From Neolecta irregularis DAH-3 (Eukaryota), in contig LXFE01000515.1 of the NCBI GenBank assembly GCA_001929475.1, forward strand, positions 1-64,000: a stretch of 64,000 bases of DNA. The letters are read 5' to 3'. Of this stretch, positions 46,465 to 63,512 are shown one piece after another. A model generated the notes under the pieces. That model saw nothing but the letters and a program-made list of their open reading frames with translations, was not told where the DNA came from and did not search any database. Numbering within the stretch: position 1 is the stretch's first letter; each line of letters begins with the position of its first letter. A program made the translations under genes and the position numbers.

Positions 46465-48527
46465 ATGAAGGCAGAAACACTACAAGTTCATTGGCACGAG
46501 ACTCAGCCTATTTACAGCGCTCATTTCGAACCGTCTGGGAAAGGTCGACTAGCTACTGCCGGTGGGGACAATATTGTTCGGGTTTAATCCCTTTATTCTT
46601 CTTTATACCAATGATAGGTCTGGAAACTGGAGAGAAATGACGATGGAACGCATGTTGTGAGTTTTTTAAGCACCTTGGCAAAGCACACCCAAGCCGTCAA
46701 TGTAGTTCGATTCAGCCCAAAAGGTATGTCTGAATCAGATTTCTAACAGACCTTACTCGAAGGAAATCAAATTGCGTCTGCTGGAGATGACGGAAATGTC
46801 CTTATTTGGGTACCTTCAGAAACAAGGGAACATGTTCTTGGTGAAACATCCGCCGATCTGGAAGATGAGAAAGAGAATTGGAGAGTGAAACATATGTGCC
46901 GCTCGACCGGTTCTGAGATTTATGACCTGGCTTGGTCGCCTGATGGCACCTTCATAATTACCGGATCAATGGATAATATTGCACGGATTTATGACGCAAG
47001 GGACGGTACGCTACCGCATAGTCTGCAGAGTTTTTAAGCCTCAGGAAATGTCGTTCGGCAAATTGCCGATCATCAGCATTATGTCCAAGGGGTTGCTTGG
47101 GATCCGCTTAATGAATTCATTGCTACGCAGAGCAGCGACCGGTCGGTTCATATATACGCCCTCAAGAACGCAGATGGACAGTTCTCCCTTTCTCATTATA
47201 ACAGGTCAATGAAAATTGAACTTCCAAGTCGCCGCATTTCTAATGGAAGCCCTGCTCCGCCCGATTTTATGAAACCTCCAGTCTCAGCAACTTCTGCCTT
47301 GAGTGAATCGATTGCTTCTCCTGTAACTTCGACTCCCGGTACTCCGACCAGTATGCAACCTCCAATGACTCACTCAAGACGGTCTTCGTTTAGCAATTCG
47401 CCGGCATTTCGAAGATCTGCAAGTCCCTCGCCTGCATTCCCGCTCCCTGCCGTTAAACCAATGTCCCCGAGAATGACGGAACCGCGGACCGTCCCACTCT
47501 ATTATAATGAAGCTCTGGCAAGCTTCTTTAGAAGATTGACGTTTGCACCTGACGGGAGTTTGCTCTTTACACCAGCTGGGAAGTTGAAGAGAACGAGTAC
47601 ATCGGATGCAAGAGATTTGACAAACGAAAAGACGGACGACATAATCAACACAGTCTTCATCTATAGTAGAGCAGGCTTGAAGAAGTGACATCCATCCGTC
47701 ACATTACTTGCTGAATTTCATAGACCCCCTATTGCTCACTTACCGGGCCACAAGAAACCTGCGATTGCCATAAAGTGTTCGCCTATTTACTACAAACTTC
47801 GCAAAGCAGAAGTTTCGACAACTCGGCTTACAATGGATACATCTTCGGCTAATAAACCCACCCTTGGACTTCCGGAAGCAGACTTCGAGACATCGGCGTC
47901 CAAGTCAAAAGAACCTCTACCTCCTGCCTTTGCGCTTCCTTATCGGATGATTTATGCTGTCGCTACACAAGATGCCGTAGTTATATACGATACGCAACAA
48001 CATAGTCCGCTTTATATCCTGAGCAATTTGCATTATGCAACATTCACAGATTTAAGCTGGTAGGTTTGACTGGTGTTTTTACTAATCTGAATCTTAGGAC
48101 GCCTGATGGCCGTACATTATTGATGACATCAAATGATGGATTCTGTTCAGTTATCTCTTTTGACCCTGAAGAACTTGGTGAAATCCATCCTGGACCCTCT
48201 CCTCCAGTCACAGTGGGAAAACATGGTCCTCAAAGTCCAAAACTCGCCAGGGCCTCTAGTCCTGCCAGGTCAAATTCCACAAGTTCTGTAGCAACATTGA
48301 GCAGTTTTGGGATTGTCCCAGGGAATATGCCACCCGCTGCAGTATCGTCTGCGATTGGTTCTACATCTCCTCAAACGTCTTACTCAACTATGTTTCAAGT
48401 TCCTGAAATGGTTCTTGGAAAACGAGATGCGGAAATACCTTCAGGCTCTGAGAATGGCTCGGCTGTGAAAAAAAGACGCCTTACACCGACTTTCGTGGGG
48501 GATTTGAACGAAAATCAGAATCACTGA
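46465..48527 (+). CDS. CAC2: Chromatin assembly factor 1 subunit B (p60)
   Basis: [55 protein letters not shown], and C-terminal B-domain KKRRLTPT. Confidence 0.95.
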
Positions 48528-48789
48528 GCATCAGATTCTCGTTTTTATTGGTGTGTACAGGGTATCAAGGGGTCTTTTTGTCTAAAATGAGGTTTTCTGG
48601 GGCGCATTGAGGATGAACTTTGTTATTCAAATTAAAAAAACCAATTACATCTGCAAGTTTGAGTTGCGCGTGTTTACTGGCGTTGTTTATTTTCCTGCCA
48701 ACCTTCAGCATTTTTCCTCCACCGACTCGACGCAACCTCCGGTCAGTTGAATCGACTTGTTCCATCTGCATATTTTCTTTCTTTAAGTA

Positions 48790-51700
48790 ATGGCAGGAGG
48801 AGGCCCACGATATCAGGGTGTAGCTGCAAATCATGCCCGAACTAGCTCAACAGTCTCCAGAGTTCTGTCTCAAACATCATCTCAGTCATCAAACGTAGCA
48901 TCACCGTCGCTTCACGGTAACAACAAGCGCCCTTTAAGTGCAGCTGCTCAACATACAGCGACGAACAAACGCAAAGAACGCGAGTTTGAGAAATCCAGAG
49001 ATCAGGAATCATTGATCGAGAACAAAGAGACAAACATTCAAGTTGTTCTGCGGTGTCGAGGTCGAAATGAACGAGAGATCCGGGAAAACAGCAGCGTCGT
49101 AGTTTCTGCTCCAGACGGTGCAAGAGGACGAGATTTGTGCGTCCAAACTAGCTCATCTACGCCTTTAAGCAACAAAATATATACTTTCGATCGTGTTTTT
49201 GGACCTGAGGCTGACCAAGAGATGGTATTCGATGACGTGGTCCAGCCGATGCTCGAGGAGGTGCTTTCTGGATATAATTGTACTGTCTTTGCCTATGGAC
49301 AAACAGGAACCGGTAAAACGTGAGTCTGATTGTTATAAACAGATACTTATACATCAGATATACTATGAGTGGAGATGTCATTGACATCTTGGGTTCATAT
49401 TCCCCGAACGCGGGGATAATTCCACGGACGCTTTACAAGCTTTTCAGCGCCCTTGATGCAGCCAATACAGAATATTCAGTTAAATGTTCTTTTATTGAAT
49501 TGTATAACGAGGATCTACGTGATCTGCTGTCGATCGATGAAGAGGTCAAATTACGAATGTTCGAAGACTCGTCAAAACGTAGCGTATTAATTCAAGGCAT
49601 GGAAGAAGTAGTTATCAGTTCAGCTGCAGACGGAGTCAAATATCTCCAGAGTGGAACGGAGAAACGACAGGTTGCCGCCACCAGGAGTAACGAATTTTCA
49701 AGGTATCTACGATCACCCATAGCGTTGGCTCATACTGTTAGTCGGTCCCATACTGTCTTTACAATACTTGTACATATCAAGGAAACTGCTGAAGGCGATG
49801 ATGTTCTTCGAGTTGGAAAATTAAATTTGGTCGACCTCGCTGGTTCGGAGAATATCAGTCGGTCTGGTGCAGAAAACAAACGGGCTCGGGAAGCTGGTAT
49901 GATCAATCAAAGTTTATTAACCCTCGGACGAGTCATTAATGCTTTGGTTGAGCACTCGCCGCACATACCATACCGGTATATCCAAGGCCAATCCTGTCTT
50001 ACATTGCAGTGAATCGAAGTTGACCAGACTTTTACAAGACTCTCTCGGTGGTAGAACCAAGACATGTATAATTGCCACTGTCTCTCCAGCCAGAGTCAAT
50101 CTGGAGGAGACTGTCAGTACTCTTGATTACGCATACAAGGCGAAGAACATCCACAACAAACCCCAAATGAATAAAATGATGACTAAGAAAGCTTTGATCA
50201 AAGATTATATTATGGAGATTGAGAAATTGAAGCATGATCTTATAGTCCGTCGTTGGTTGTGCATTTTGCTAATAACCAGGCATCGAGGCAAAAGACTGGT
50301 GTTTACCTGTCGAATGAAACATACGAAGAACTAACTCTGGAGAATGAGAGTCGACGAGTGCTCCTCGACGAAAAGGAAAGAAAAACGCTTGCTCTTGAGA
50401 ATTCACTTAAAGCTACTCGCGAACAATTCGAGCAAAACATCAAATTGTTCATGGAAACTAAAAGCCACCTTGAGAAGACACATGTATGACATACATTTCT
50501 CTGCAACCTCTAACTGATTCAGAGCACTCTTAATGAAACTCGACAAACGCTTGGCCGTACTGAGCAGAGCCTCTTTCATGTCAAACAAAATCTTGCCGAA
50601 GAAACAGTCCTGCGCAAGGCACACCAGGCTACAGAAACAAATCTCGATGATGTTGCGCAAAATCTCAAGAGTAAACTCGACGAATCAGTCGGTGATATTT
50701 TCAAGCTTCACGCAAAGGTTGAAAGGAAATCTCATATTGAGTCGCATAATAAAGAGAGGTGGTCAGAATTACAAAGTTTGATGGGAGATCAACTAGCACT
50801 TATCGAAACACGCATTGATGACTTTGCCAAGAGTCAACTGATATTTTCGGATTCCATGACTGGAAGACTGACTGGATTTATCGTAAAAGAAATGAAAAGA
50901 TTAACTGATAATTATCAATATGTTGAAGGTCAGTTTCGAAAGTTCAACGAACAACAAGGCAAACTTACGGACTCATTGGGGGATAGTAGGACCCAAGCTG
51001 AGGCTGTAGTGGGAGAAATCAAGGCTTTGAGAGAAGAAGTCAAAGGAAGACTTGGTGAAGGGTTGAAGGGTCTTAATAAAGCAGCCGAGAGGATTGCGGG
51101 AGAAGTTGTTGGCGAACTTATTGAATTTCAACAGCAGGTATCATGACATTCAGGTGTATTGCTAAAACCAAGATCAACGCCTCATACAATCAGCTTGGTC
51201 ATGAAATTAAATTCCTCTTCGACGATACCAATCGTCACATACGATCCCAAACACAAGAAATTGTCAATCTCAAAACACAGCTTGCCGAAGCATCGCAAAG
51301 GGCCACATGTCATCTTACTACTACAAGCGACAATCTCAAAGAAGCAATTGAAGAGGAGACACTGATTCGACTGCAAGAACGCGACCATCTCCTCAAACAG
51401 ATATCTTGCATGGTCTGTGATATAGTCGATTCTCAGGAGCGTCGTCTTAATGGACGGATTTTTAGCATACAAAATGGCCTCATCATAGCTACTCAGGAGG
51501 CTGGACGCAATGCAGTTCAGCAGTCAGATGCATTAGACGTTCTTGTTGAAAAGGAAGCAATGTTTTCGAAGAAAATTCATGCACAGAAGGAGGATGTCAA
51601 ACGCACGATGGTTCGGGCGGCACAAACTGCAGACGTCAAGGGACTTCAAATCCAGCAGAGCACTAGAGCTATTCATGCCGAGACCACCACTCTGGTCGAG

Positions 51701-54235: not shown

Positions 54236-54372
54236 ATCTTACCCTTGGAGATACGAAGCAGCTCACCTTTGTGCGCAGAGCTCATCGATTTACTCTGCTG
54301 TAAATATATTCGATGATATTGGGATAGCAAGGCATAGCCAAACTTGAAGTTTTCATTCTCCTATTTATTCCA

Positions 54373-57300
54373 TTATTTATGACAACTCTGTAAGTGAATC
54401 GTTTGGATGTCTTGGCATGCCTCTGCCAAAATCCATACATTGACCCCAAAGAATATCATTCCGGCGAGCCATAAACCTGGAAAGAATGTATTTCGGCCTA
54501 GAATCTCGAGGTTAATGGCTTGATGAATCCAGATGCCCTCAACTTCTCAGTAGCAAGAATGGTAGGGGTTTTACCTGCGATCCAGCCCAAAAAATAAAGG
54601 CGGTGATTCCGATTCTTGGTCTCTGAATGAAATTCGAGAACGGTAGAAAAAGAGGAAGGAAGACAAGATACCACATGTAATACTGTTATTGTCAGTTCCA
54701 AGCAATGTAACTACCCAACCTGACTAGTACAGACTTTATTAAACGCAACAAATGCAAATGTCTGAAGAAAGATAGTAGCGGGAAGATTGATCTTTGCAAA
54801 TGCCAGCGGTATCAACGCGAGACTTGTTAAAAGCTGAGGTATAAATGCGAGTGAGGAAAAAGAAAAAGCATTTCCACGAGCTGAAGCAAAATACAGTGCT
54901 AGGTGATATGGAGAAAAATTGTGTCGGTGGTCAGAGCGGATGAAATGGTAAAGATACGTATGCTCGAGGAAAGATGCACCATACCTATCAGTTAGAATGC
55001 CATCACCAAATTTAAGGCCATACAGATAATACATTCCAGAATTCAGTAGACCAAAAGTTAGGAGACTGACAATTCCTAGTGTCATTCGATCTCGATTGAA
55101 AAAAAAAGTGATTCGAGATATAATAGTTGTATGTTGCATAAAACTGGCACATTCTGTATACTTCTCATCCATCGCCCAGATAAGACTTGTTGAATAGAGA
55201 AAGGGATAGATTTTGGAATGAACAGCTAGTCCGAGCCAAAGACCCATCAGGATAGTTCGTCGCTTGCTAAAAGAGTCGAGAATCAGTAAAGTCAACGCGC
55301 CAAGTAATCCTTCCACATTCCCTCTTGTGCTTATCACTGCGACCATGGGATTCAGTGTCCATATGCACGAATATAAAACCGCCTTTCGTTGAGGAAGTCC
55401 CATCCGCCTAAGAAGTTTAATTATGATATATCCGGACAGAAGATCCCCAAAGGCGAAGAGAACCTTTCCAAAATGTTTCCATAGTCCTCCCCATGTATTC
55501 GGATAAAGCATCCAGGCGAGTAAAGGAGTGTATCGATATGTCTCGCGTTCGTAAGGAGATCCCCCTTTCGCAAAGAACGAAGCCGCATCGCTAAACACAA
55601 AGTAATCAACATCGGTATATTTTAAGTGCGAATGGCCGTCCTGCCAAATTCCGTATACGAGAAGTATTGCGCGAAGCAAGAACCCAACGAGCATTACAAT
55701 ATTGATAGCATTGATGTTGTAAATGCTCTTAAACAGTACCCAAAATCGACGCGTTCGAGAAATACTCGATCTTAAAGGATAGTCTCCGTCTTTGGTACAC
55801 TTATTAGAGACTTCCCTGCCAATTTCGTAATAAGTGGATGTCATTGCATAAACTCCAGGACGAAGTTCATTGGGAATTCTTTCGATGCTATGCTTAGATG
55901 ATGTGTAAATCATATTGGCACGTTGCATAATTTGTTTAGCGTACTTTTTTAGTGGAAGATGTGAAGTTTTGCGAACTATGGAGGAGCTGTTTGAAGACAA
56001 CCCAATGGATATCAACTGCTCTCTATCCTCTAAAGATGAGAACTGAGAACTCGGAATGTATGTCCGTCCCTTTAGGGCATCTGTCAGAATATCGCGGGAG
56101 ATGTTTACTAACTGGAGGACCTGCTATGTTGAGCAGGAAAAACCAATATGTCTTACCTCTCCCATTTTCCTCGCATCTTTGATTAAGTCGTCGGGAAAAG
56201 GCGAAGAAACATCTGGGTCATGAAGCATTATCCATGTGCAGATCTCCGCTACACTACTTGCTACACCTTCACAGTATTTGTGCAACGTCTCGATGTCTGT
56301 GATTTCAAGCTCCTTGGTTGAATTAGAATCCTCGGAAAGTCCTGGAATATCCATTTCAAGTCCATTAAACAATTCCAAGAATGGCTCGCGCGGAACTTTG
56401 GACGCCAAAACTTTCAAGGCGGCTCGAGATATCGAAAGATCTGGGATTGTTCTATTTAGATCTGGCATCTGTCCCCTTCGAAATTCTTCCTTCGAAAGAA
56501 ATGAGGTTTGGACAAAATCACGTAGAGTTTCAAGTCTCCTACGGCGTTCGAGATTGCTTTCGTGAATATTTTCATCTACTATATCATCGGCGATGCGGCA
56601 GAGAGCATATGCAACGCTGAGATCTTGTCGGATGTTTTCAGGATATAAAAAACTAGAGGTGTGAAATGAACTGGAAGCGTTCTTCAGAACCTTGTTACAA
56701 TAATCGATATCATCAATCAACGACTGATCGATCCTCTCATGGTACATAAAAGATGCTTGAAGCAATTGAAAGAAGTAGCTCAATTTGTGGCTTGGTGCAT
56801 TTTTAGTCGACTTGAGGTACAAGATTGTTGTTGCCCGATCAAATCCTGCGCAGCCTAAAATGACGATTACATTCGTGAACGCGAAGAAAATTGCTTCTTC
56901 AATGGGAAGATACTCCCATAATTCATAGCCAGTGCGTGTGGAGTCGGCAATTTTCCAGACCTTGTCCCTGATGGCAATCGTATCTACTACCCACAAAAAG
57001 ACAGTTGGAATAATGAGCGAGATAACCGATGATCTCCACCTTCGAAGAGCGAATGGTCCCGCAACCCACCAAAGAAACGCAAAGACAGGGAATATCCAGG
57101 CAAGTATCATTCCCAAATAGAATGTTGGTGTACCGATTTGGGCGAGTTCCCACCCTATTGCCGCCGTGGCTATCGACACGAGAATGGGTACATGTTGCAG
57201 GACCCATGCTTGTCGATACGGCTTGAGTGCCATGATAGCAGGTTCCTCGAATCGGCAGACCATTGAGTAAAAGATCGAAGTTGAGAGAGTTTGAATGACG

Positions 57301-57651
57301 ATGAACATGTACTCTTCAATGGGTATGTGTAAAACGGTAGCTAATACGCTCTTCGATCCATAGCTCCAAGCACCATTTTTTATGACATAGCTATCCCTAG
57401 CCTGTCAGTTCTGTTGATGAAGCATAAACTTTTACCAGGATGTCGTGTAAAGAAGTGCTACTACGGTAAGAAATTTCCATTTGATGGCATCAAAGCGAGT
57501 CTGTAACGGTCGATATAACAACCAGAGACCAAGCAATAGCGGGAGAGTATAAAGGAGATGACTGAAGAGGGTCAATACTGCAATACATAAGACAGACTCA
57601 CATCTGCAAGTAAGCACTTGGGAAAGCTGTAGGTTCGGCTTGTCGAAACAT
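54373..57651 (-). CDS. Fusion ORF: bifunctional lycopene cyclase/phytoene synthase (CrtYB/Al-2 type) joined in frame to GPI mannosyltransferase I (PIG-M/Gpi14)
   Basis: Cyclase motifs: HLLYTLP, TTSWDSY...AWSY, IPIEEYMF, VDTIAI...W, LPIEEAIFF. Synthase motifs: ASSSF, CRIADDIVD, YCEGVASSV, LQLVNISRDI.TDA..GRTYIP. PIG-M motifs follow without a stop: KYTDVDY.VFSDAA, SPYERETYRYTPLL, LNPMVAVISTRG, HSKIYP, RSDHRHNFS, FNKVCTSQY. Confidence 0.9.
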
Positions 57652-58180
57652 TGGTCGCTCGTGGAGATGCTAGTTTGAGCGAATAACTGGTTGAGGCTTG
57701 AAAATGTTGTACAGAGCAATGTGCCTCTTTCATTTAATCATCCCGTCGTTCTGTTTCACGTAATTATCGCGAGGTGGAATCTCAGTGCTGTCCAAGAGGC
57801 AAATTGCAAACTGGGACTCGATCCGATCACGATCTCCACATCTCGAACAGTCTAAACGTCTTCCGGTGACCTGAATATCCGCAGACATGTTTATTTGTTT
57901 ATATACATAAAATGACAAATACCGTCGTAACCCCCCGGAGCGGATGTATTAGCATTCTAACTAAACTTGATATTGTATTGCATAATAGATTCGTTCCATT
58001 TGGAACTTCGTGAAAATCTACAATTCTGACATTCGGTGTAGCGGTTTTTGTCGGGTTCGGATGCCAATGAACCTGTTCCAAACGAATTTGACAACCCTCG
58101 AATTCAGGACTCCACTACAACCAAAGCTTACTACCATTACTTTACGAATATAATCCTATTCACGTGCTTGCTCTGCTTAC

Positions 58181-58749: not shown

Positions 58750-61327
58750 TCATCGAATTTGGTTCGCGCTGAAAGCTGTCTTTGCCAGAGGACTGCTAAT
58801 GCTTGGTGCAAATTGCAGAGATTTTCGGCGAGCAATTTCAACCTTCTTCAGAATGTTTATATTAAGAGGACAGAACAAGGCTAAAAGTAATCAGCATTCA
58901 TGGGCTTGTAAATACGACGATTACTTTTTCCCGGACATGTCTGCGGAACTCGTGCTAGAGTAGGGGCGTCCTTGGCAGCTGGAGTTACATCGGCGATGGT
59001 TGACAAGGTTTTGGTTTCCATAGATTTACGGCGCTGAGAGATCAACAAATGAGCGTGCATGCTTGGATCCTACTCTATGACTGTAGGGGATTTGTTCAAC
59101 ACTGATCTCGAAGCCAGCTTCTTCGACTTGACGGCCTACTTTCTCACAGGCCATAACCCATGATAATCCGACGCATTTAACAGCTCCATTCGTTTCTTTG
59201 ATCTTGGCTAACGTTCGCGGACTTCCGTCCTTGAAGATTACATGAGTAATATTATGATTGCTCCTATCATGATTGCTATTCCATGACTTAGCAATTCGAC
59301 CGCCGAGGGATTTGATCAAATCGACGAAAGGCGCTGAAGCATCGTCCCCGTCAACTAATCAAAGTTAGCACTGACACGTGTATGCAAAAATTACTGGTTC
59401 GCACATCGAGATAAACAACGATGTTCTGCAATACACTGTGTCTATCTACCAGACCATCTGGTGTCGCGTAAAGTTCAGCTTTTATGGGCGATAGCTCCGT
59501 TGTTGCCGATTTTGATTTTCGAAGAGGTTTTGAACGTACCGGCAGGACATCATTATTATCTTGGTGAGGGAATTCAAAGGAATTCAGAGATTCCAGTTGA
59601 GTGGTATTAGTAGTTTTGCTTTTTTGGGAAGATTTATATTCGGAGTTGTGTGTGACTGGGGTCAGTTGATCTTGAGGACTATCTTTCAGACAAGTCTCGA
59701 GCGCAGGCGGTGAGGTTCGCTTCGATTTGCTCCCAAGTCGGAGATCGGAGAAAGAATAACGCAGCGGATCAATTGGAACCAATTTGTCCGAAAAATATAA
59801 AGTATCTGGTAGTATGTCGCTGGCCGGACCACATTCAGTACTCAAAGGCGATGATGCACTTCGAGATCTCGTCAATCGAGGTAGTTTACTTTCTGAGGTC
59901 AAGACATTCGAGAATTCCGAGGTGTCAGAACCTGAATGACGGTGATATAAAGACACTTCGGCCGTTTCATTTTCTCTCAAATATTCCAAGGGTTTTGTTT
60001 TATGGCGAAGACAGCTACGAGGAGTTTTGACGGTAGTACTTGGCAATCTTTGGGCTGGAGGTTCTGTCGCCGTGATGACGCCCACTTCTTCGGAATCGAT
60101 TGTAGCTAAACTACTCAGAGACTTCCTTCGTAATGCTAACCGAGACCCATCTTTAGGTAAGGATCGCGGAGGAGTTTGAATCTGTACCGTTTTTCGCTTC
60201 AATGCTCGAGGTGGAGAATCGTCCGTATAATGCTCGGACTCGACTGGAATATCTATGATTTTTTGATTATATATGCTATTTGGCATGGTGCGAGATTCTG
60301 CACTTTTCTTGTGCTTGAGTAAAGGCGAGGGCGATATCTGTTCCTCTACCTCTGATGGAGATCGACTTGGACTTCGACTTCGGTATAATCTGTTGAAGAC
60401 GCCATCGCTTTCTTCACATGGCTCTGAAGAAGATGAAATATGCCGAGAAGATGGTTTATTTCGGGTTGGTCGCGATGGAGTTTCGTCAGCATCCTTCAAA
60501 GGAACGAAGAAATCCAACGACTTGTTCGTCTTGAGAATGGACTTCGTGACATGCAGAGAACTGTCTTCAGCTTCGCGGGTTTGATCTCGTGCAAGAGTGG
60601 CGGGGTTCAATATTCGCAAAGGTTTTGATAACGGAGTTTGATGTCTTGGCTGAATCCTTGTTGGGCTACCCATTCTTCTATTTGATTTTGGTATTTCTGG
60701 AAGAACGTAGTTGTCCTCGAATATGTCCGATTCAACATCAACGAACGGTGTCTTAGTGCGAATTGGGCTTCCCATCCGTCCAGGGGTATTATGAATTTCC
60801 TTTGGTGCCTCAATGAGCTGATCCAACTGAATTTCGGTCAAATTATGCGGGATTCTACGTGAAGGACCTCCGAGCTTGGAGAAGTTTTGCGGTGCCAAGT
60901 GCGTATTGGAAATCCGTTGACTCAATGAATCGATCGAAGATAAGGATGTAGTTTGTCGAAGAGGTTTTCGAAGACTTGATCGAGTGGCCAACTCTGGTTC
61001 TTCAGCATTCTTTTTCGAGGTTGTAGCAGGCGTCATGGAAACTCTTGTCGGACCGGAAGCGAGACCTTTGTTCGGTACTGGGTCATTGTTCTCTTTTCCA
61101 ATAGAGGGCTTAGAACGTCTGAGGGATGCTGTTGCTTGGGCTTTAACCGGGAACCTTTGAGCTTTTCCCAAACCGCCTCTTTGTAACTCTAGTTGGTCGT
61201 TGCCCGAATAAATTGTAGTCTTCTTTCGACCCTTCCATTCGTATTTAATACGCCATTCCGGCTCAACGTGTTCCTCTTTAGCCCTTGCTCGAGTCATTAT
61301 TCGTCGTTCTGATTGTTGGCTGGTCAT
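58750..61327 (-). CDS. BRCT-domain protein (long disordered N-terminus, single C-terminal BRCT)
   Basis: LQNIVVYLDVRT, LGGRIAKSW, ITHVIFKDGS, CVGLSWVMACE, and C-terminal ARRKSLQFAP..SSPL. Confidence 0.85.
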
Positions 61328-62119
61328 TTCGATCCAATGACGAGCAATAGGGGAGTCACTTTTGGTGGAAGGGGTTTGTTGTTTACAAAACGAGTTTGAA
61401 TTTTTGTTCTGGTCAAACACCGACACGCGGTGCGAACATGGTCCGGCAAAGACTTGATATGCGTCATTCTAATAAATCTCGCCCCTATATAGAGTCTTCC
61501 TATGTTTAGTTATTCTATCAATTTTTGCACAAGCTTCAACGCAGACTGAGTTTCCAATGGTGTTTAGCGCGTTCTGTTGCCAAGATAACATGTGAAATAA
61601 AAGGCAGTAGGAATTCACTCTAGCCTTGCGATTTTTGCTTGCGCTAAGTATTGAAGCTTGAGGTCCTGAAGCAAATCAAGGTTCATATTTGCGATTTCAG
61701 GATCGCTTCCCGCTGAAGTCTCATGCCTACCCAAGACTTTCGTCTAAGGGAAATTAGATTTTGACTGCGAGCTGCTTTGGAATTCAGACAATGAATTCTA
61801 GATTTTGTTGTAATACAAATCCAGTTTTCTCACCAGTCTTAGCTTTATTGCATTTTGAAGTTTATAAATGTTTTAGTCATACCTCGTGTGTACACCTGTG
61901 AAACAATTACTTGTGGTCCTCTGCACTCACCGCTCCTCAGGCGACTCAACAAGATTCAGATTCATCAATCTATGCCTGTGGCGATGTGGCCCGTATCTAA
62001 AATACAGGCCGATTCAAGAGACCCATAATTAGCCATCAAGCACGAATAAGCGAAAACAGAACATCATCCCGAGGGTCCATACTAGAGTAGATAAGGGGTA
62101 GCTAAAAGTACCCTTGTAA

Positions 62120-63512
62120 TTAAAAAACAGAACCCAACATATCTATCCATTGACACAAGACAGCATTTCCTTCGTCTTCCACGACCTTTTGAAAATCTTC
62201 CCATCCCAGTCTTTTGTTTGGATAATCTGCAAATATTTTATCAACGAGTTCGTGAGCGGAAAGAAGAGCAGTTTGTTCCATGACAGCTGCATATTCTTCG
62301 TTCATGTGAGAGTGCGACTGCCGAGGCGGGATTAAAGGCATTGTCAAGCTTTTTTCTCGGTGTCGAGCATCTGCAGAAACCGGAGTTACATTGAATGTTG
62401 TAGAAATCGGATTTGAACCATGGCCAGTGGTTTCTTGAAGAGTGGCAGCATCAACATATTCATCCGCCAACATCGATTTAATAACGTCCTGAACAAGACT
62501 TCGAGAAAGAGTGTGCTGGGCTTTAAGCATTTCAAGAACCTGGGTTTTTGAAATAAAGTCTTTGTTTTCCCAATTGTATCCATTGAAAACAGCTTCCCTT
62601 AGTCAGAGTCTTGTTGCTGATAATACCTCTCACTTTTTCTATATGATCTGTCTTTCCCGTCAAAATGTGAATTCCGCGAAGATACTCTGTAAAAGAGATA
62701 ACTCCATCATCATCCTGATCGTAAAATGAGAATAAGCGATGAAAAACAAGATTTGAAGCTTGTCCTAGTTGTCCTAAACAAGCGAGAAACGCAATCTTAT
62801 CAATCCCACAATTAATCCCAAGGTTGTCCTCGCAATTTACAGACGCGATACAGCTGAACTGATCATAGGCAGCATCAAGCTCGGGCTCCTTGTCTTTCGT
62901 CAGAGGAAAGAGGATAAATAGATCTACCATATCCCATCTCTTCAAGTGTTTTCTTTTGTTCCTTTGTTAATCGTGGAGGAACAACAAGATTAGGATTGCC
63001 TAGACATTATTTTGAATTCATCCCTTGATCTAACCAGGATATGCAGGTTTAATGATAGTTTTTGGATTACCTAGAGTAGGTAATGGAATGCGAACTTTGA
63101 AAAATAAATGACTCTTAGCATGAGTTGAGATCGCTTCACATTGATCGCAAAGATCGTAATCTACGCAGTTTGAGCATCGATATCGAACCCCGCGAATCGG
63201 AGAAACATTGCACGAATTACAGCTTATACCGCGATGAACATATCCTTCCTTTTTTGCGTGATCCTACTGGTCAAGGTAAAGCACTCTGACCCAAACCTCT
63301 GCAATGTGATAAAGCAGCTTTAATAGTTGTTCCTCATCACTGGGATTCGAAGGTAGTGCTGCTGAAGCTCCGTTTGAGGTTTGTGACGAATGTTCGTACG
63401 TTTCTGGAGAAGGACGCAGATGGAGATTTCTGGCGAAAGCCCGATATATCTGAACTACAGCGATGGCTCCGATAACGCTGCTTGCTGCTATGATATATGG
63501 TTTCCGGAGCAT
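62120..63512 (-). CDS. ZZ zinc finger / EF-hand protein with N-terminal TM anchor
   Basis: HRGISCNSC...IRGVRYRCSNCVDYDLCDQCE..H..SHLFFK (ZZ finger) and YDQDDDGVISFTEY (EF-hand). Confidence 0.88.

What the first reader, a model, noticed from the sequence alone, without database searches (positions are those of the whole stretch)
54373..57651. Carotenoid lycopene cyclase/phytoene synthase fused in frame to GPI mannosyltransferase I (PIG-M/Gpi14)
Seen: one exon (ORF 54711-56015) runs from the phytoene synthase C-terminus (...SRTRRFWVLFKSIY) straight into the first TM helix of PIG-M (NINAINIVMLVGFLLRAILLVYG..QD...KYTDVDY) at about 55720. There is no stop codon, no linker and no evident splice signal. 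Both halves keep their key motifs (DDIVD and NISRDI for the synthase; the DxD motif TDVDY for PIG-M). Known: fungal CrtYB/Al-2 makes pigments and is dispensable, whereas Gpi14 is an essential ER glycosyltransferase that uses dolichol-phosphate-mannose. Inference: this three-activity polypeptide is topologically plausible (membrane cyclase, cytosolic synthase, cytosolic PIG-M N-terminus). It would anchor carotenogenesis in the ER and tie a pigment gene to an essential one. I do not know of this fusion being described.
Basis: partly seen in the sequence, partly recalled or inferred. Interest (0 to 1): 0.9.

Follow-up and report, generated by a model that had tools for sequence, protein, structure and literature searches.

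The report
Carotenoid enzyme fused to GPI mannosyltransferase
In the fungus Neolecta irregularis one gene joins the pigment-making enzyme CrtYB to the GPI-anchor enzyme Gpi14/PIG-M, relatives share the fusion, and fission yeast Gpi14 seems to carry a dead remnant of the pigment part.

Summary
On the minus strand, a stop-free frame (54711-56123, 470 codons) runs from the phytoene synthase C-terminus into the first membrane helix of PIG-M. With five 36-40 nt introns removed, the gene (57651-54373) encodes a 1029-residue protein that aligns end to end with fused proteins of other fungi.

The window is Neolecta irregularis DAH-3. The same architecture is predicted in Saitoella, Protomyces, Taphrina, Savitreella and nine unnamed sequences, with a linker of near-constant length. 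5 of these 14 have no methionine in the 50 residues before the conserved YG at the end of the first PIG-M helix. An assembly error or a merged gene model is therefore very unlikely.

All four Schizosaccharomyces Gpi14 proteins examined, S. pombe included, carry a 395-440-residue N-terminal extension. It looks like a degenerate CrtYB.

No RNA or protein evidence could be obtained. Eight targeted full-text searches found no description of the fusion. I read it as one ER-membrane polypeptide with three activities, and as a new variant of known kinds.

The parts
54373..57651 (-). Whole CrtYB-Gpi14 gene, ATG 57651-57649 to TAA 54375-54373. Six exons: 57651-57602, 57561-57436, 57396-56157, 56120-54720, 54682-54575, 54537-54373. 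1029 residues.
   Evidence: spliced CDS of 3090 nt with no internal stop. It aligns 14-1019 with Protomyces P0128 residues 4-964, and 14-1013 with Saitoella P0122 residues 6-1034.
57562..57601 (-). Intron 1, 40 nt (GTGAGT...CAG)
   Evidence: Removing it restores the conserved N-terminus (..YLQIHLLYTLP..), as in the relatives.
57397..57435 (-). Intron 2, 39 nt (GTAAAA...TAG), contains an in-frame stop
56121..56156 (-). Intron 3, 36 nt, inside the phytoene synthase domain
   Evidence: Removal gives ..MGEVLQLVNISRDI.., which matches the conserved MGVVLQLTN(I/V)ARDI of the relatives.
54683..54719 (-). Intron 4, 37 nt, inside PIG-M. It is missed by the public model, which ends ...TSQVG.
54538..54574 (-). 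Intron 5, 37 nt, inside PIG-M
   Evidence: The last exon hits PF05007 profile positions 219-257.
56814..57651 (-). Lycopene cyclase part (residues 1-253). About six hydrophobic segments and two PxEE motifs at residues 84 and 223.
   Evidence: (PF18916, 21 bits, below cutoff)
55803..56687 (-). Phytoene synthase domain (residues 296-578), with DDIVD at 329-333 and NISRD at 478-482
   Evidence: A PDB sequence search with P0121 hits phytoene synthase 5iys_A at 4.8e-11.
55701..55802 (-). Linker between the end of the synthase domain and PIG-M helix 1 (residues 579-612). The junction ...FKSIY/NINAIN... lies near 55720.
   Evidence: The linker has the same length in 13 of 14 carotenoid-type fusions; Saitoella has a 14-residue insert.
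54376..55700 (-). PIG-M/Gpi14 part (residues 613-1029): helix 1 at 613-631, TDVDY at 641-645, HRHNFS at 870
   Evidence: PDB sequence search hits GPI mannosyltransferase 1, 23gx_B at 1.5e-65 and 9wno_A at 2.2e-60.
55692..55694 (-). In-frame ATG (Met615) inside PIG-M helix 1. It is the only candidate internal start near the junction in this species.

Best explanation
This is a genuine, ancient gene fusion. One mRNA and one reading frame encode an ER-membrane polypeptide of 1029 residues with three parts. The first is a two-repeat membrane lycopene cyclase. The second is a cytosolic phytoene synthase. The third, reached through a short conserved linker, is the multi-spanning GPI mannosyltransferase I (PIG-M/Gpi14), whose DxD loop follows its first helix.

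The PIG-M part is made only as the C-terminal half of this protein. It has lost its own start codon and presumably its own promoter. The fusion most likely arose once, in an early member of the Taphrinomycotina.

Pigmented lineages (Neolecta, Saitoella, Taphrina, Protomyces, Savitreella) keep all three activities. Fission yeasts lost carotenoid synthesis but still translate Gpi14 through a degenerate CrtYB remnant. The two Pneumocystis models seen carry no such extension.

Shown: the open frame, the domains and motifs, the conservation of the architecture, and the likeness of the fission-yeast extension to CrtYB. Inferred: single-polypeptide translation, activity of each part, ER location, and a single origin.
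For: 1. The frame is uninterrupted across the junction and the six-exon model has no stop.
2. Both families score above Pfam cutoffs in the junction-spanning frame. They also do so in 13 of 13 carotenoid-type relatives scanned.
3. Public predicted proteins with the same order exist for Neolecta (100% identical), Saitoella, Protomyces, Taphrina and Savitreella, plus nine unnamed sequences. Several of the unnamed ones are 957-978 residues long.
4. In the junction alignment the linker has constant length in 13 of 14.
5. 5 of 14 have no Met in the 50 residues before the YG that ends PIG-M helix 1, and 8 of 14 have none between -29 and -3. In those 8 the next Met lies 2-97 residues after the YG, so starting there would drop helix 1 in all 8 and the DxD loop in the 7 where it lies 28 or more residues on.
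6. S. pombe (815 residues), S. japonicus (781), S. osmophilus (824) and S. octosporus (824) Gpi14 all carry an open N-terminal extension of 395-440 residues.
7. That extension matches CrtYB. BLASTP of residues 1-128 against Protomyces 1-131 gives E 2e-9. hhalign of four fission-yeast extensions against nine CrtYB parts gives probability 95.8% and E 6.5e-9.
8. The first VPxEE motif and the xYxP(S/T) junction motif are kept in 4 of 4, while the second PxEE and both Asp-rich synthase motifs are lost in 4 of 4.
9. For S. pombe residues 1-430, the nearest ESM Atlas structural clusters are 'Bifunctional lycopene cyclase/phytoene synthase' (TM by query 0.56, 306 aligned) and bacterial lycopene cyclase domain proteins.
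10. Control: 0 of 80 metagenome loci encoding PIG-M relatives have any CrtYB-like sequence upstream, and 44 of them have at least 2 kb upstream.
Against: - No transcript or protein evidence was obtained.
- For every species other than Neolecta I saw only predicted proteins, not DNA. A model that splices over a stop cannot be formally excluded for each one.
- Neolecta itself has an in-frame Met615, 13 residues before the YG, so internal initiation cannot be excluded in this species.
- The synthase part of the fission-yeast extension is not detectable. Pfam finds no PF00494 in 0 of 4.
- AlphaFold models of S. pombe Gpi14 have low confidence there, and Foldseek against the PDB returned only GPI-MT I, PIG-U and ALG-type hits.
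- HMM scores of the extension against CrtYB are low. They are 12.6 and 6.3 bits against a best of 5.4 among 1000 shuffles. With a poorer profile one shuffle (8.1 bits) fell between the two real sequences (9.0 and 6.8 bits).
- The single-gene PIG-M tree does not recover a monophyletic Taphrinomycotina, so a single origin rests on the accepted phylogeny rather than on this tree.
Confidence: 0.8

Rival explanations
1. Polyprotein. The fused frame is translated as one chain but is then cut near the conserved linker, so the cell ends up with separate CrtYB and Gpi14 proteins. The fusion would then matter only for co-expression and membrane insertion.
For: The linker has a conserved short motif ((H)xYxP followed by S/T-rich residues) of constant length, kept even in fission yeasts. 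That could be a processing site. Proteolytic separation of the two CarRA domains in Mucorales has been proposed; this is recalled and I read no paper on it here.
Against: No tool result bears on cleavage. A conserved linker is equally expected for an uncleaved two-domain membrane protein. In fission yeast a cleaved, functionless remnant would be expected to shrink, yet 395-440 residues are kept in 4 of 4 species.
Confidence: 0.1
2. Overlapping genes. The frame is open by accident or for CrtYB's benefit, but functional Gpi14 is made from its own internal promoter and start codon (Met615 in Neolecta). The CrtYB readthrough product would be irrelevant for GPI synthesis.
For: Neolecta and five other carotenoid-type sequences have a Met 13-25 residues before the YG of helix 1.
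Against: 8 of 14 carotenoid-type sequences and S. osmophilus have no Met placed so as to include helix 1. The fission-yeast extension stays open over 395-440 codons in four species although its catalytic motifs are gone. That is not expected of an untranslated leader. Non-AUG initiation was not examined.
Confidence: 0.07
3. Artefact. An assembly collapse or sequencing error removed the stop codon and intergenic spacer between two neighbouring genes, and gene predictors elsewhere merged neighbours.
For: Merged PIG-M models do occur. Pneumocystis models join PIG-M to SCO1/SenC and tRNA-synthetase domains. The public Neolecta model is wrong at both ends.
Against: The same junction, with the same linker length, appears in 14 independent sequences from separate named species and assemblies or metagenomes. 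Four curated or reference fission-yeast proteins have a collinear extension.
Confidence: 0.03

Closest known systems
Fungal bifunctional lycopene cyclase/phytoene synthase (CrtYB of Xanthophyllomyces, AL-2 of Neurospora, CarRA/CarRP of Mucorales; names recalled)
   Same: The N-terminal 578 residues have the same order. There are two membrane cyclase repeats with PxEE motifs, then an SQS_PSY domain with both Asp-rich motifs. The UniRef name of the public protein is 'Bifunctional lycopene cyclase/phy...'.
   Different: The known enzymes are stand-alone proteins of roughly 600 residues (recalled; the two ESM Atlas clusters of that name have 580 and 599 residues). Here the chain has no stop and continues for 450 more residues into PIG-M.
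GPI mannosyltransferase I catalytic subunit (PIG-M / Gpi14, GT50); solved structures 9wno_A (Candida glabrata, with Dol-P-Man), 23gx_B, 23gf_B
   Same: The PF05007 match covers the whole profile across three exons. The TD(V/I)DY motif after helix 1 and the HRHNFSPY motif are both present. Sequence E-values to the solved enzymes are 1.5e-65 to 2.2e-60.
   Different: Stand-alone PIG-M proteins begin about 5-35 residues before helix 1. Here helix 1 is preceded by 612 residues of CrtYB. 0 of 80 metagenome PIG-M loci show that arrangement.
Schizosaccharomyces Gpi14 (S. pombe NP_596260.1, 815 residues, 'putative pig-M family mannosyltransferase')
   Same: It has the same overall length class and the same junction motif. 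Its N-terminus aligns collinearly with the cyclase part of CrtYB, and the first VPxEE motif is kept.
   Different: The second PxEE and both Asp-rich synthase motifs are lost, and Pfam finds no carotenoid domain. The extension evolves fast, at 16-66% identity between species against 53-91% for the PIG-M part.
Other carotenoid multi-enzyme fusions (for example the thraustochytrid CrtIBY; recalled, not examined here)
   Same: Several steps of one pathway are fused into one polypeptide.
   Different: Those fusions join enzymes of the same pathway. This one joins a dispensable pigment pathway to GPI-anchor synthesis, which is reported to be essential (recalled).

Membership tests
Fungal CrtYB/AL-2/CarRA bifunctional enzyme | Two lycopene cyclase repeats in the membrane, each with a PxEE motif | tested here: met
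   PxEE at residues 84 and 223, and about six hydrophobic segments in residues 14-253. Both motifs are conserved in the relatives whose models include those positions. The Pfam PF18916 match is only 21 bits, below its 27-bit cutoff.
Fungal CrtYB/AL-2/CarRA bifunctional enzyme | SQS_PSY domain with both Asp-rich substrate-binding motifs | tested here: met
   PF00494 scores 82.8 and 41.5 bits over the two exons, covering profile positions 1-247 of 263. DDIVD and NISRDILTD are present. Phytoene synthase 5iys_A matches at 4.8e-11.
Fungal CrtYB/AL-2/CarRA bifunctional enzyme | Stand-alone protein ending shortly after the synthase domain | tested here: not met
   There is no stop. The frame continues into PIG-M.
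Fungal CrtYB/AL-2/CarRA bifunctional enzyme | Converts GGPP to phytoene and cyclises lycopene | not testable with these tools
   This needs expression with crtE/crtI in a reporter host.
PIG-M / Gpi14 (GT50) | PF05007 mannosyltransferase domain over its full length | tested here: met
   155.6 bits (profile 1-184) in exon 4 and 35.3 bits (profile 219-257) in exon 6. The spliced protein aligns to the end of the relatives.
PIG-M / Gpi14 (GT50) | DxD motif in the loop after the first membrane helix | tested here: met
   TDVDY at residues 641-645, ten residues after helix 1 (613-631). The motif is invariant in all 26 aligned sequences.
PIG-M / Gpi14 (GT50) | Close sequence relation to structurally solved GPI-MT I | tested here: met
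   23gx_B at 1.5e-65 and 9wno_A at 2.2e-60.
PIG-M / Gpi14 (GT50) | Works with the partner subunit PIG-X/Pbn1 and transfers the first mannose from Dol-P-Man | not tested
   The genome of the window is not held, so Pbn1 could not be sought. Activity needs a gpi14 complementation assay.

The most novel reading that the evidence does not exclude
The CrtYB module has become a built-in structural or regulatory part of GPI mannosyltransferase I in this subphylum. It might act as a membrane scaffold that positions or stabilises PIG-M, or it might sense polyprenyl lipids. On this reading, even fission yeasts, which make no carotenoids, cannot discard it, and the unexplained N-terminal half of S. pombe Gpi14 is a repurposed pigment enzyme. 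Carotenoid synthesis and GPI-anchor synthesis would then be physically and perhaps metabolically coupled at the ER through shared isoprenoid-derived substrates (GGPP and dolichol-phosphate-mannose).
Probability: 0.25. Interest if true: 0.85.

Novelty: new variant of a known kind. Interest (0 to 1): 0.72.

Why it matters
Gpi14/PIG-M carries out the first mannosylation of GPI anchors and is reported to be essential (recalled). CrtYB is a dispensable pigment enzyme.

A fusion of the two held across several classes of early-diverging ascomycetes is an unusual 'Rosetta stone' link between unrelated pathways. It also shows how a dispensable gene can be locked in place by an essential one.

It gives a concrete origin for the unexplained 395-440-residue N-terminal half of fission-yeast Gpi14. 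That origin can be tested directly in S. pombe by truncation.

It also corrects the public Neolecta gene model, from 899 to 1029 residues. In addition, it warns that carotenoid gene inventories and GPI-pathway inventories in these fungi point to the same locus.

Tried and rejected
- **RNA evidence.** No RNA holder was listed for 54300-57700.
- **Whole genome.** The genome of the window is not held. A second stand-alone GPI14 or crtYB in Neolecta could therefore not be sought. No second protein named Neolecta appeared among the 120 listed hits.
- **DNA-level check in a second species.** The metagenome scan returned 80 PIG-M loci. None carried a CrtYB part. This is useful as a control, but it gave no second fused locus to read.
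- **Word-indexed search.** A search with S. osmophilus residues 1-440 found only itself and S. octosporus.
- **HMM tests.** The first HMM was built from 14 CrtYB parts, many of them N-terminally truncated. It did not separate the fission-yeast extensions from 1000 shuffles (9.0 and 6.8 bits against a best shuffle of 8.1). A profile of nine sequences with N-termini longer than the truncated models ranked them first and second (12.6 and 6.3 against 5.4).
- **Structure predictions.** I made two AlphaFold models of S. pombe Gpi14, one without and one with carotenoid-type homologues in the alignment. The N-terminal half had low to moderate confidence in both. Foldseek against the PDB gave no isoprenoid-synthase hit. 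Retention of the synthase fold in fission yeast is therefore not shown.
- **Hidden intron at the junction.** Three GT..AG candidates with a branch-like motif were found, and none was credible.
- **Carotenoid gene cluster.** Pfam on ten large neighbouring frames found no phytoene desaturase next to the gene.
- **Literature.** I ran these searches: Neolecta + carotenoid (9 papers; I saw the listing only, apart from passages of one paper, PMC7980564, read); gpi14 + phytoene synthase (0); Taphrinomycotina + lycopene cyclase + phytoene synthase (1); PIG-M + lycopene cyclase (1, a microalgal carotenoid review judged from its title and abstract start only); gpi14 + pombe + carotenoid (0); Saitoella + phytoene synthase (0); GPI mannosyltransferase + phytoene (1, irrelevant); a recalled S. 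pombe systematic name (0). In the Taphrina deformans genome paper (PMC3648899) I read only the passages found. They list TAPDE_005571 as lycopene cyclase/phytoene synthase and do not mention PIG-M. Supplementary files were not opened and may bear on this.
Full report
**What is in the sequence**

The feature lies on the minus strand. A stop-to-stop frame of 470 codons (54711-56123) reads from the last third of a phytoene synthase domain straight into the first membrane helix and DxD loop of PIG-M (...SRTRRFWVLFKSIYNINAINIVMLVGFLLRAILLVYGIWQDGHSHLKYTDVDY...), with no stop.

In this single frame Pfam scores both SQS_PSY (PF00494, 41.5 bits, profile positions 151-247 of 263) and PIG-M (PF05007, 155.6 bits). 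The frame upstream (56124-57404) holds the first 150 profile positions of SQS_PSY (82.8 bits) and a sub-threshold lycopene cyclase match.

**Gene model**

Reading the DNA, I placed five very short introns of 40, 39, 36, 37 and 37 nt, each with a branch-like CTRAC/TGAC element. Removing them gives a CDS of 3090 nt and 1029 residues with no internal stop, running from ATG 57651 to TAA 54373.

The product aligns end to end with the fused proteins of Protomyces (14-1019 against 4-964) and Saitoella (14-1013 against 6-1034). The public model of this gene (899 residues) is 100% identical over 880 residues. It misses the first two exons and stops early because it reads into intron 4.

The key motifs are present: PxEE at residues 84 and 223, DDIVD at 329, NISRD at 478, TDVDY at 641 and HRHNFS at 870. 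There are about six hydrophobic segments in residues 14-253, and the first PIG-M helix lies at 613-631.

A scan for a hidden intron at the junction gave three weak candidates. All three would remove conserved residues.

**Whose genome, and is the fusion found elsewhere?**

The junction-spanning frame is 100% identical to a protein of Neolecta irregularis DAH-3. NCBI names it 'GPI mannosyltransferase 1' and UniRef names it 'Bifunctional lycopene cyclase/phy...'.

Proteins with PF00494 followed by PF05007, covering 99% of the query, are also on record for:
- Saitoella complicata (1058 residues)
- Protomyces lactucae-debilis (965)
- Savitreella phatthalungensis (917)
- Taphrina deformans (816, N-terminally short)
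- nine unnamed sequences

Thirteen of thirteen relatives scanned have both domains above the Pfam cutoffs. The named species belong to the classes Neolectomycetes, Saitoellomycetes and Taphrinomycetes of the subphylum Taphrinomycotina. I looked up the lineage of Savitreella and the list of classes; the placement of the other genera is recalled from their class names.

In a tree of the PIG-M parts, all unnamed fusions fall inside the Taphrinomycetes group (support 100/99). Two rows with no motif match (P0152, P0158) were left out.

As a control, I took 80 metagenome loci encoding PIG-M relatives. A tblastn with the whole Protomyces fusion found no match before residue 605. So 0 of 80 have a CrtYB part, and 44 of those have at least 2 kb of upstream sequence.

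**The junction**

In the alignment of 14 carotenoid-type fusions, the stretch from the conserved YP(L/M)RA(R/K)L of the synthase tail to the YGxWQD of PIG-M helix 1 has the same length in 13 of 14. Saitoella has a 14-residue insert. A short (H)xYxP motif sits in the middle.

Five of the 14 have no methionine at all in the 50 residues before the YG, and 8 of 14 have none between -29 and -3. In those eight the next methionine lies 2 to 97 residues after the YG. Starting there would remove helix 1 in all eight, and the DxD loop as well in the seven where it lies 28 or more residues on. In these organisms PIG-M can hardly be made except as part of the long protein.

Neolecta does have Met615, 13 residues before the YG. 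For this one species an internal start cannot be excluded on sequence alone.

**Fission yeast**

The 'longer' search also returned two Schizosaccharomyces PIG-M proteins of 824 residues in which Pfam sees only PF05007, in the C-terminal half. An exhaustive HMMER search with one of them, followed by a cluster look-up, added S. pombe (NP_596260.1, 815 residues) and S. japonicus (781). All four have an open N-terminal extension of about 395-440 residues.

Evidence that the extension derives from CrtYB:
- Its first 128 residues match the first 131 of the Protomyces fusion (BLASTP E 2e-9), starting at the very N-terminus (M.TYL..).
- A profile of the four extensions matches a profile of nine CrtYB parts with hhalign probability 95.8% and E 6.5e-9. 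With two sequences the figures were 89.4% and 2e-6.
- The first VPxEE motif and the xYxP(S/T) junction motif are kept in 4 of 4.
- The second PxEE and both Asp-rich synthase motifs are lost in 4 of 4.
- For S. pombe residues 1-430, the nearest ESM Atlas structural clusters are two clusters named 'Bifunctional lycopene cyclase/phytoene synthase' (TM by query 0.56 and 0.55). Next come bacterial lycopene cyclase domain proteins (TM by row 0.75). This is a lead from models that used no alignment of mine.

Weaker or negative results:
- HMM scores are low: 12.6 and 6.3 bits against 5.4 for the best of 1000 shuffles. With a poorer profile one shuffle (8.1 bits) scored between the two real sequences, 9.0 and 6.8 bits.
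- Pfam finds no carotenoid domain in 0 of 4.
- My two AlphaFold models of S. pombe Gpi14 are poorly confident in the putative synthase remnant. Foldseek against the PDB gives only GPI-MT I (9wno_A, E 5e-19 and 3e-17), PIG-U and ALG-type transferases.

I therefore regard the cyclase-derived origin of the extension as well supported. Retention of a synthase fold is not shown.

The extension evolves fast, at 16-66% identity against 53-91% for the PIG-M part. Yet it stays open in all four species, which fits a sequence that must be translated to reach the Gpi14 part.

The two Pneumocystis models seen begin about 25 residues before helix 1 and carry no such extension. They are otherwise merged with unrelated downstream domains.

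**How it most likely works**

Shown: one open frame, three intact sets of catalytic motifs, and a conserved architecture.

Inferred from what is known of the families (recalled): phytoene synthase acts on cytosolic GGPP, and the PIG-M DxD loop faces the ER lumen after a cytosolic N-terminus. The order membrane cyclase, then soluble synthase, then PIG-M helix 1 is therefore topologically consistent. It would place carotenoid synthesis at the ER membrane.

I think the fusion most likely arose by loss of the stop codon and spacer between two neighbouring genes in an early member of the Taphrinomycotina. After that, Gpi14 depended on the CrtYB promoter and start codon. Pigmented lineages keep everything, and fission yeasts let the pigment domains decay but could not delete them cleanly. 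Whether the CrtYB module now contributes to GPI-MT I function is open; this is the novel case.

The rivals are post-translational cleavage at the linker, internal initiation, and artefact. They are listed with their odds in the rival explanations.

**Known or new?**

Both halves are clear members of known families by the membership tests. The architecture is visible in public databases under automatic names.

I found no paper describing it. Eight targeted full-text searches returned nothing relevant. The passages I read in the Taphrina deformans genome paper list the gene only as lycopene cyclase/phytoene synthase. Supplements, and papers outside the held library, were not seen.

I rate it a new variant of known kinds.

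**Limits**

- No RNA run was listed.
- The genome of the window is not held.
- No second fused locus could be read as DNA.

Noticed in passing
window 54373-57651 (-): The public Neolecta irregularis model of this gene (P0121, 899 residues) is truncated at both ends. It starts inside exon 2/3 with a spurious N-terminus and ends ...TSQVG because intron 4 (54719-54683) is read through. The corrected product has 1029 residues.
   Followed up: yes
window 57562-57601, 57397-57435, 56121-56156, 54683-54719, 54538-54574: All five introns of this gene are only 36-40 nt long, and most have a CTRAC/TGAC-like branch element 7-12 nt before the 3' AG. Introns this short may be commonly missed by gene predictors in this genome.
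   Followed up: partly
P0306 (S. pombe NP_596260.1), P0161, P0146, P0147: Gpi14 of four Schizosaccharomyces species has a 395-440-residue N-terminal extension. It looks like a degenerate CrtYB: the first VPxEE motif is kept and the synthase Asp-rich motifs are lost.
   Followed up: yes
P0131, P0132, P0134, P0135, P0138, P0141 (Colletotrichum species): Six Colletotrichum PIG-M models of 1113-1225 residues also carry FHA (PF00498) and/or PF16508 domains. This recurs across species and could be another real fusion or a repeated merged gene model.
   Followed up: no
P0145, P0148 (Pneumocystis): These PIG-M models of 1094-1096 residues continue into SCO1/SenC and tRNA-synthetase domains. They are probably merged neighbouring genes. 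They show no CrtYB-like N-terminal extension.
   Followed up: partly
window 48787-50012 (+): Two adjacent frames hold the halves of a kinesin motor domain (PF00225, 77.6 and 181.8 bits), presumably split by a short intron.
   Followed up: no
window 59351-61468 (-): A 705-codon open frame just upstream of the fusion gene has no Pfam family at E <= 0.001.
   Followed up: no
window 47038-47688 (+) and 62532-62966 (-): A WD40 / CAF1B-HIR1 beta-propeller fragment and an EF-hand-containing frame. No phytoene desaturase or other carotenoid gene was seen among the ten neighbouring frames scanned.
   Followed up: no
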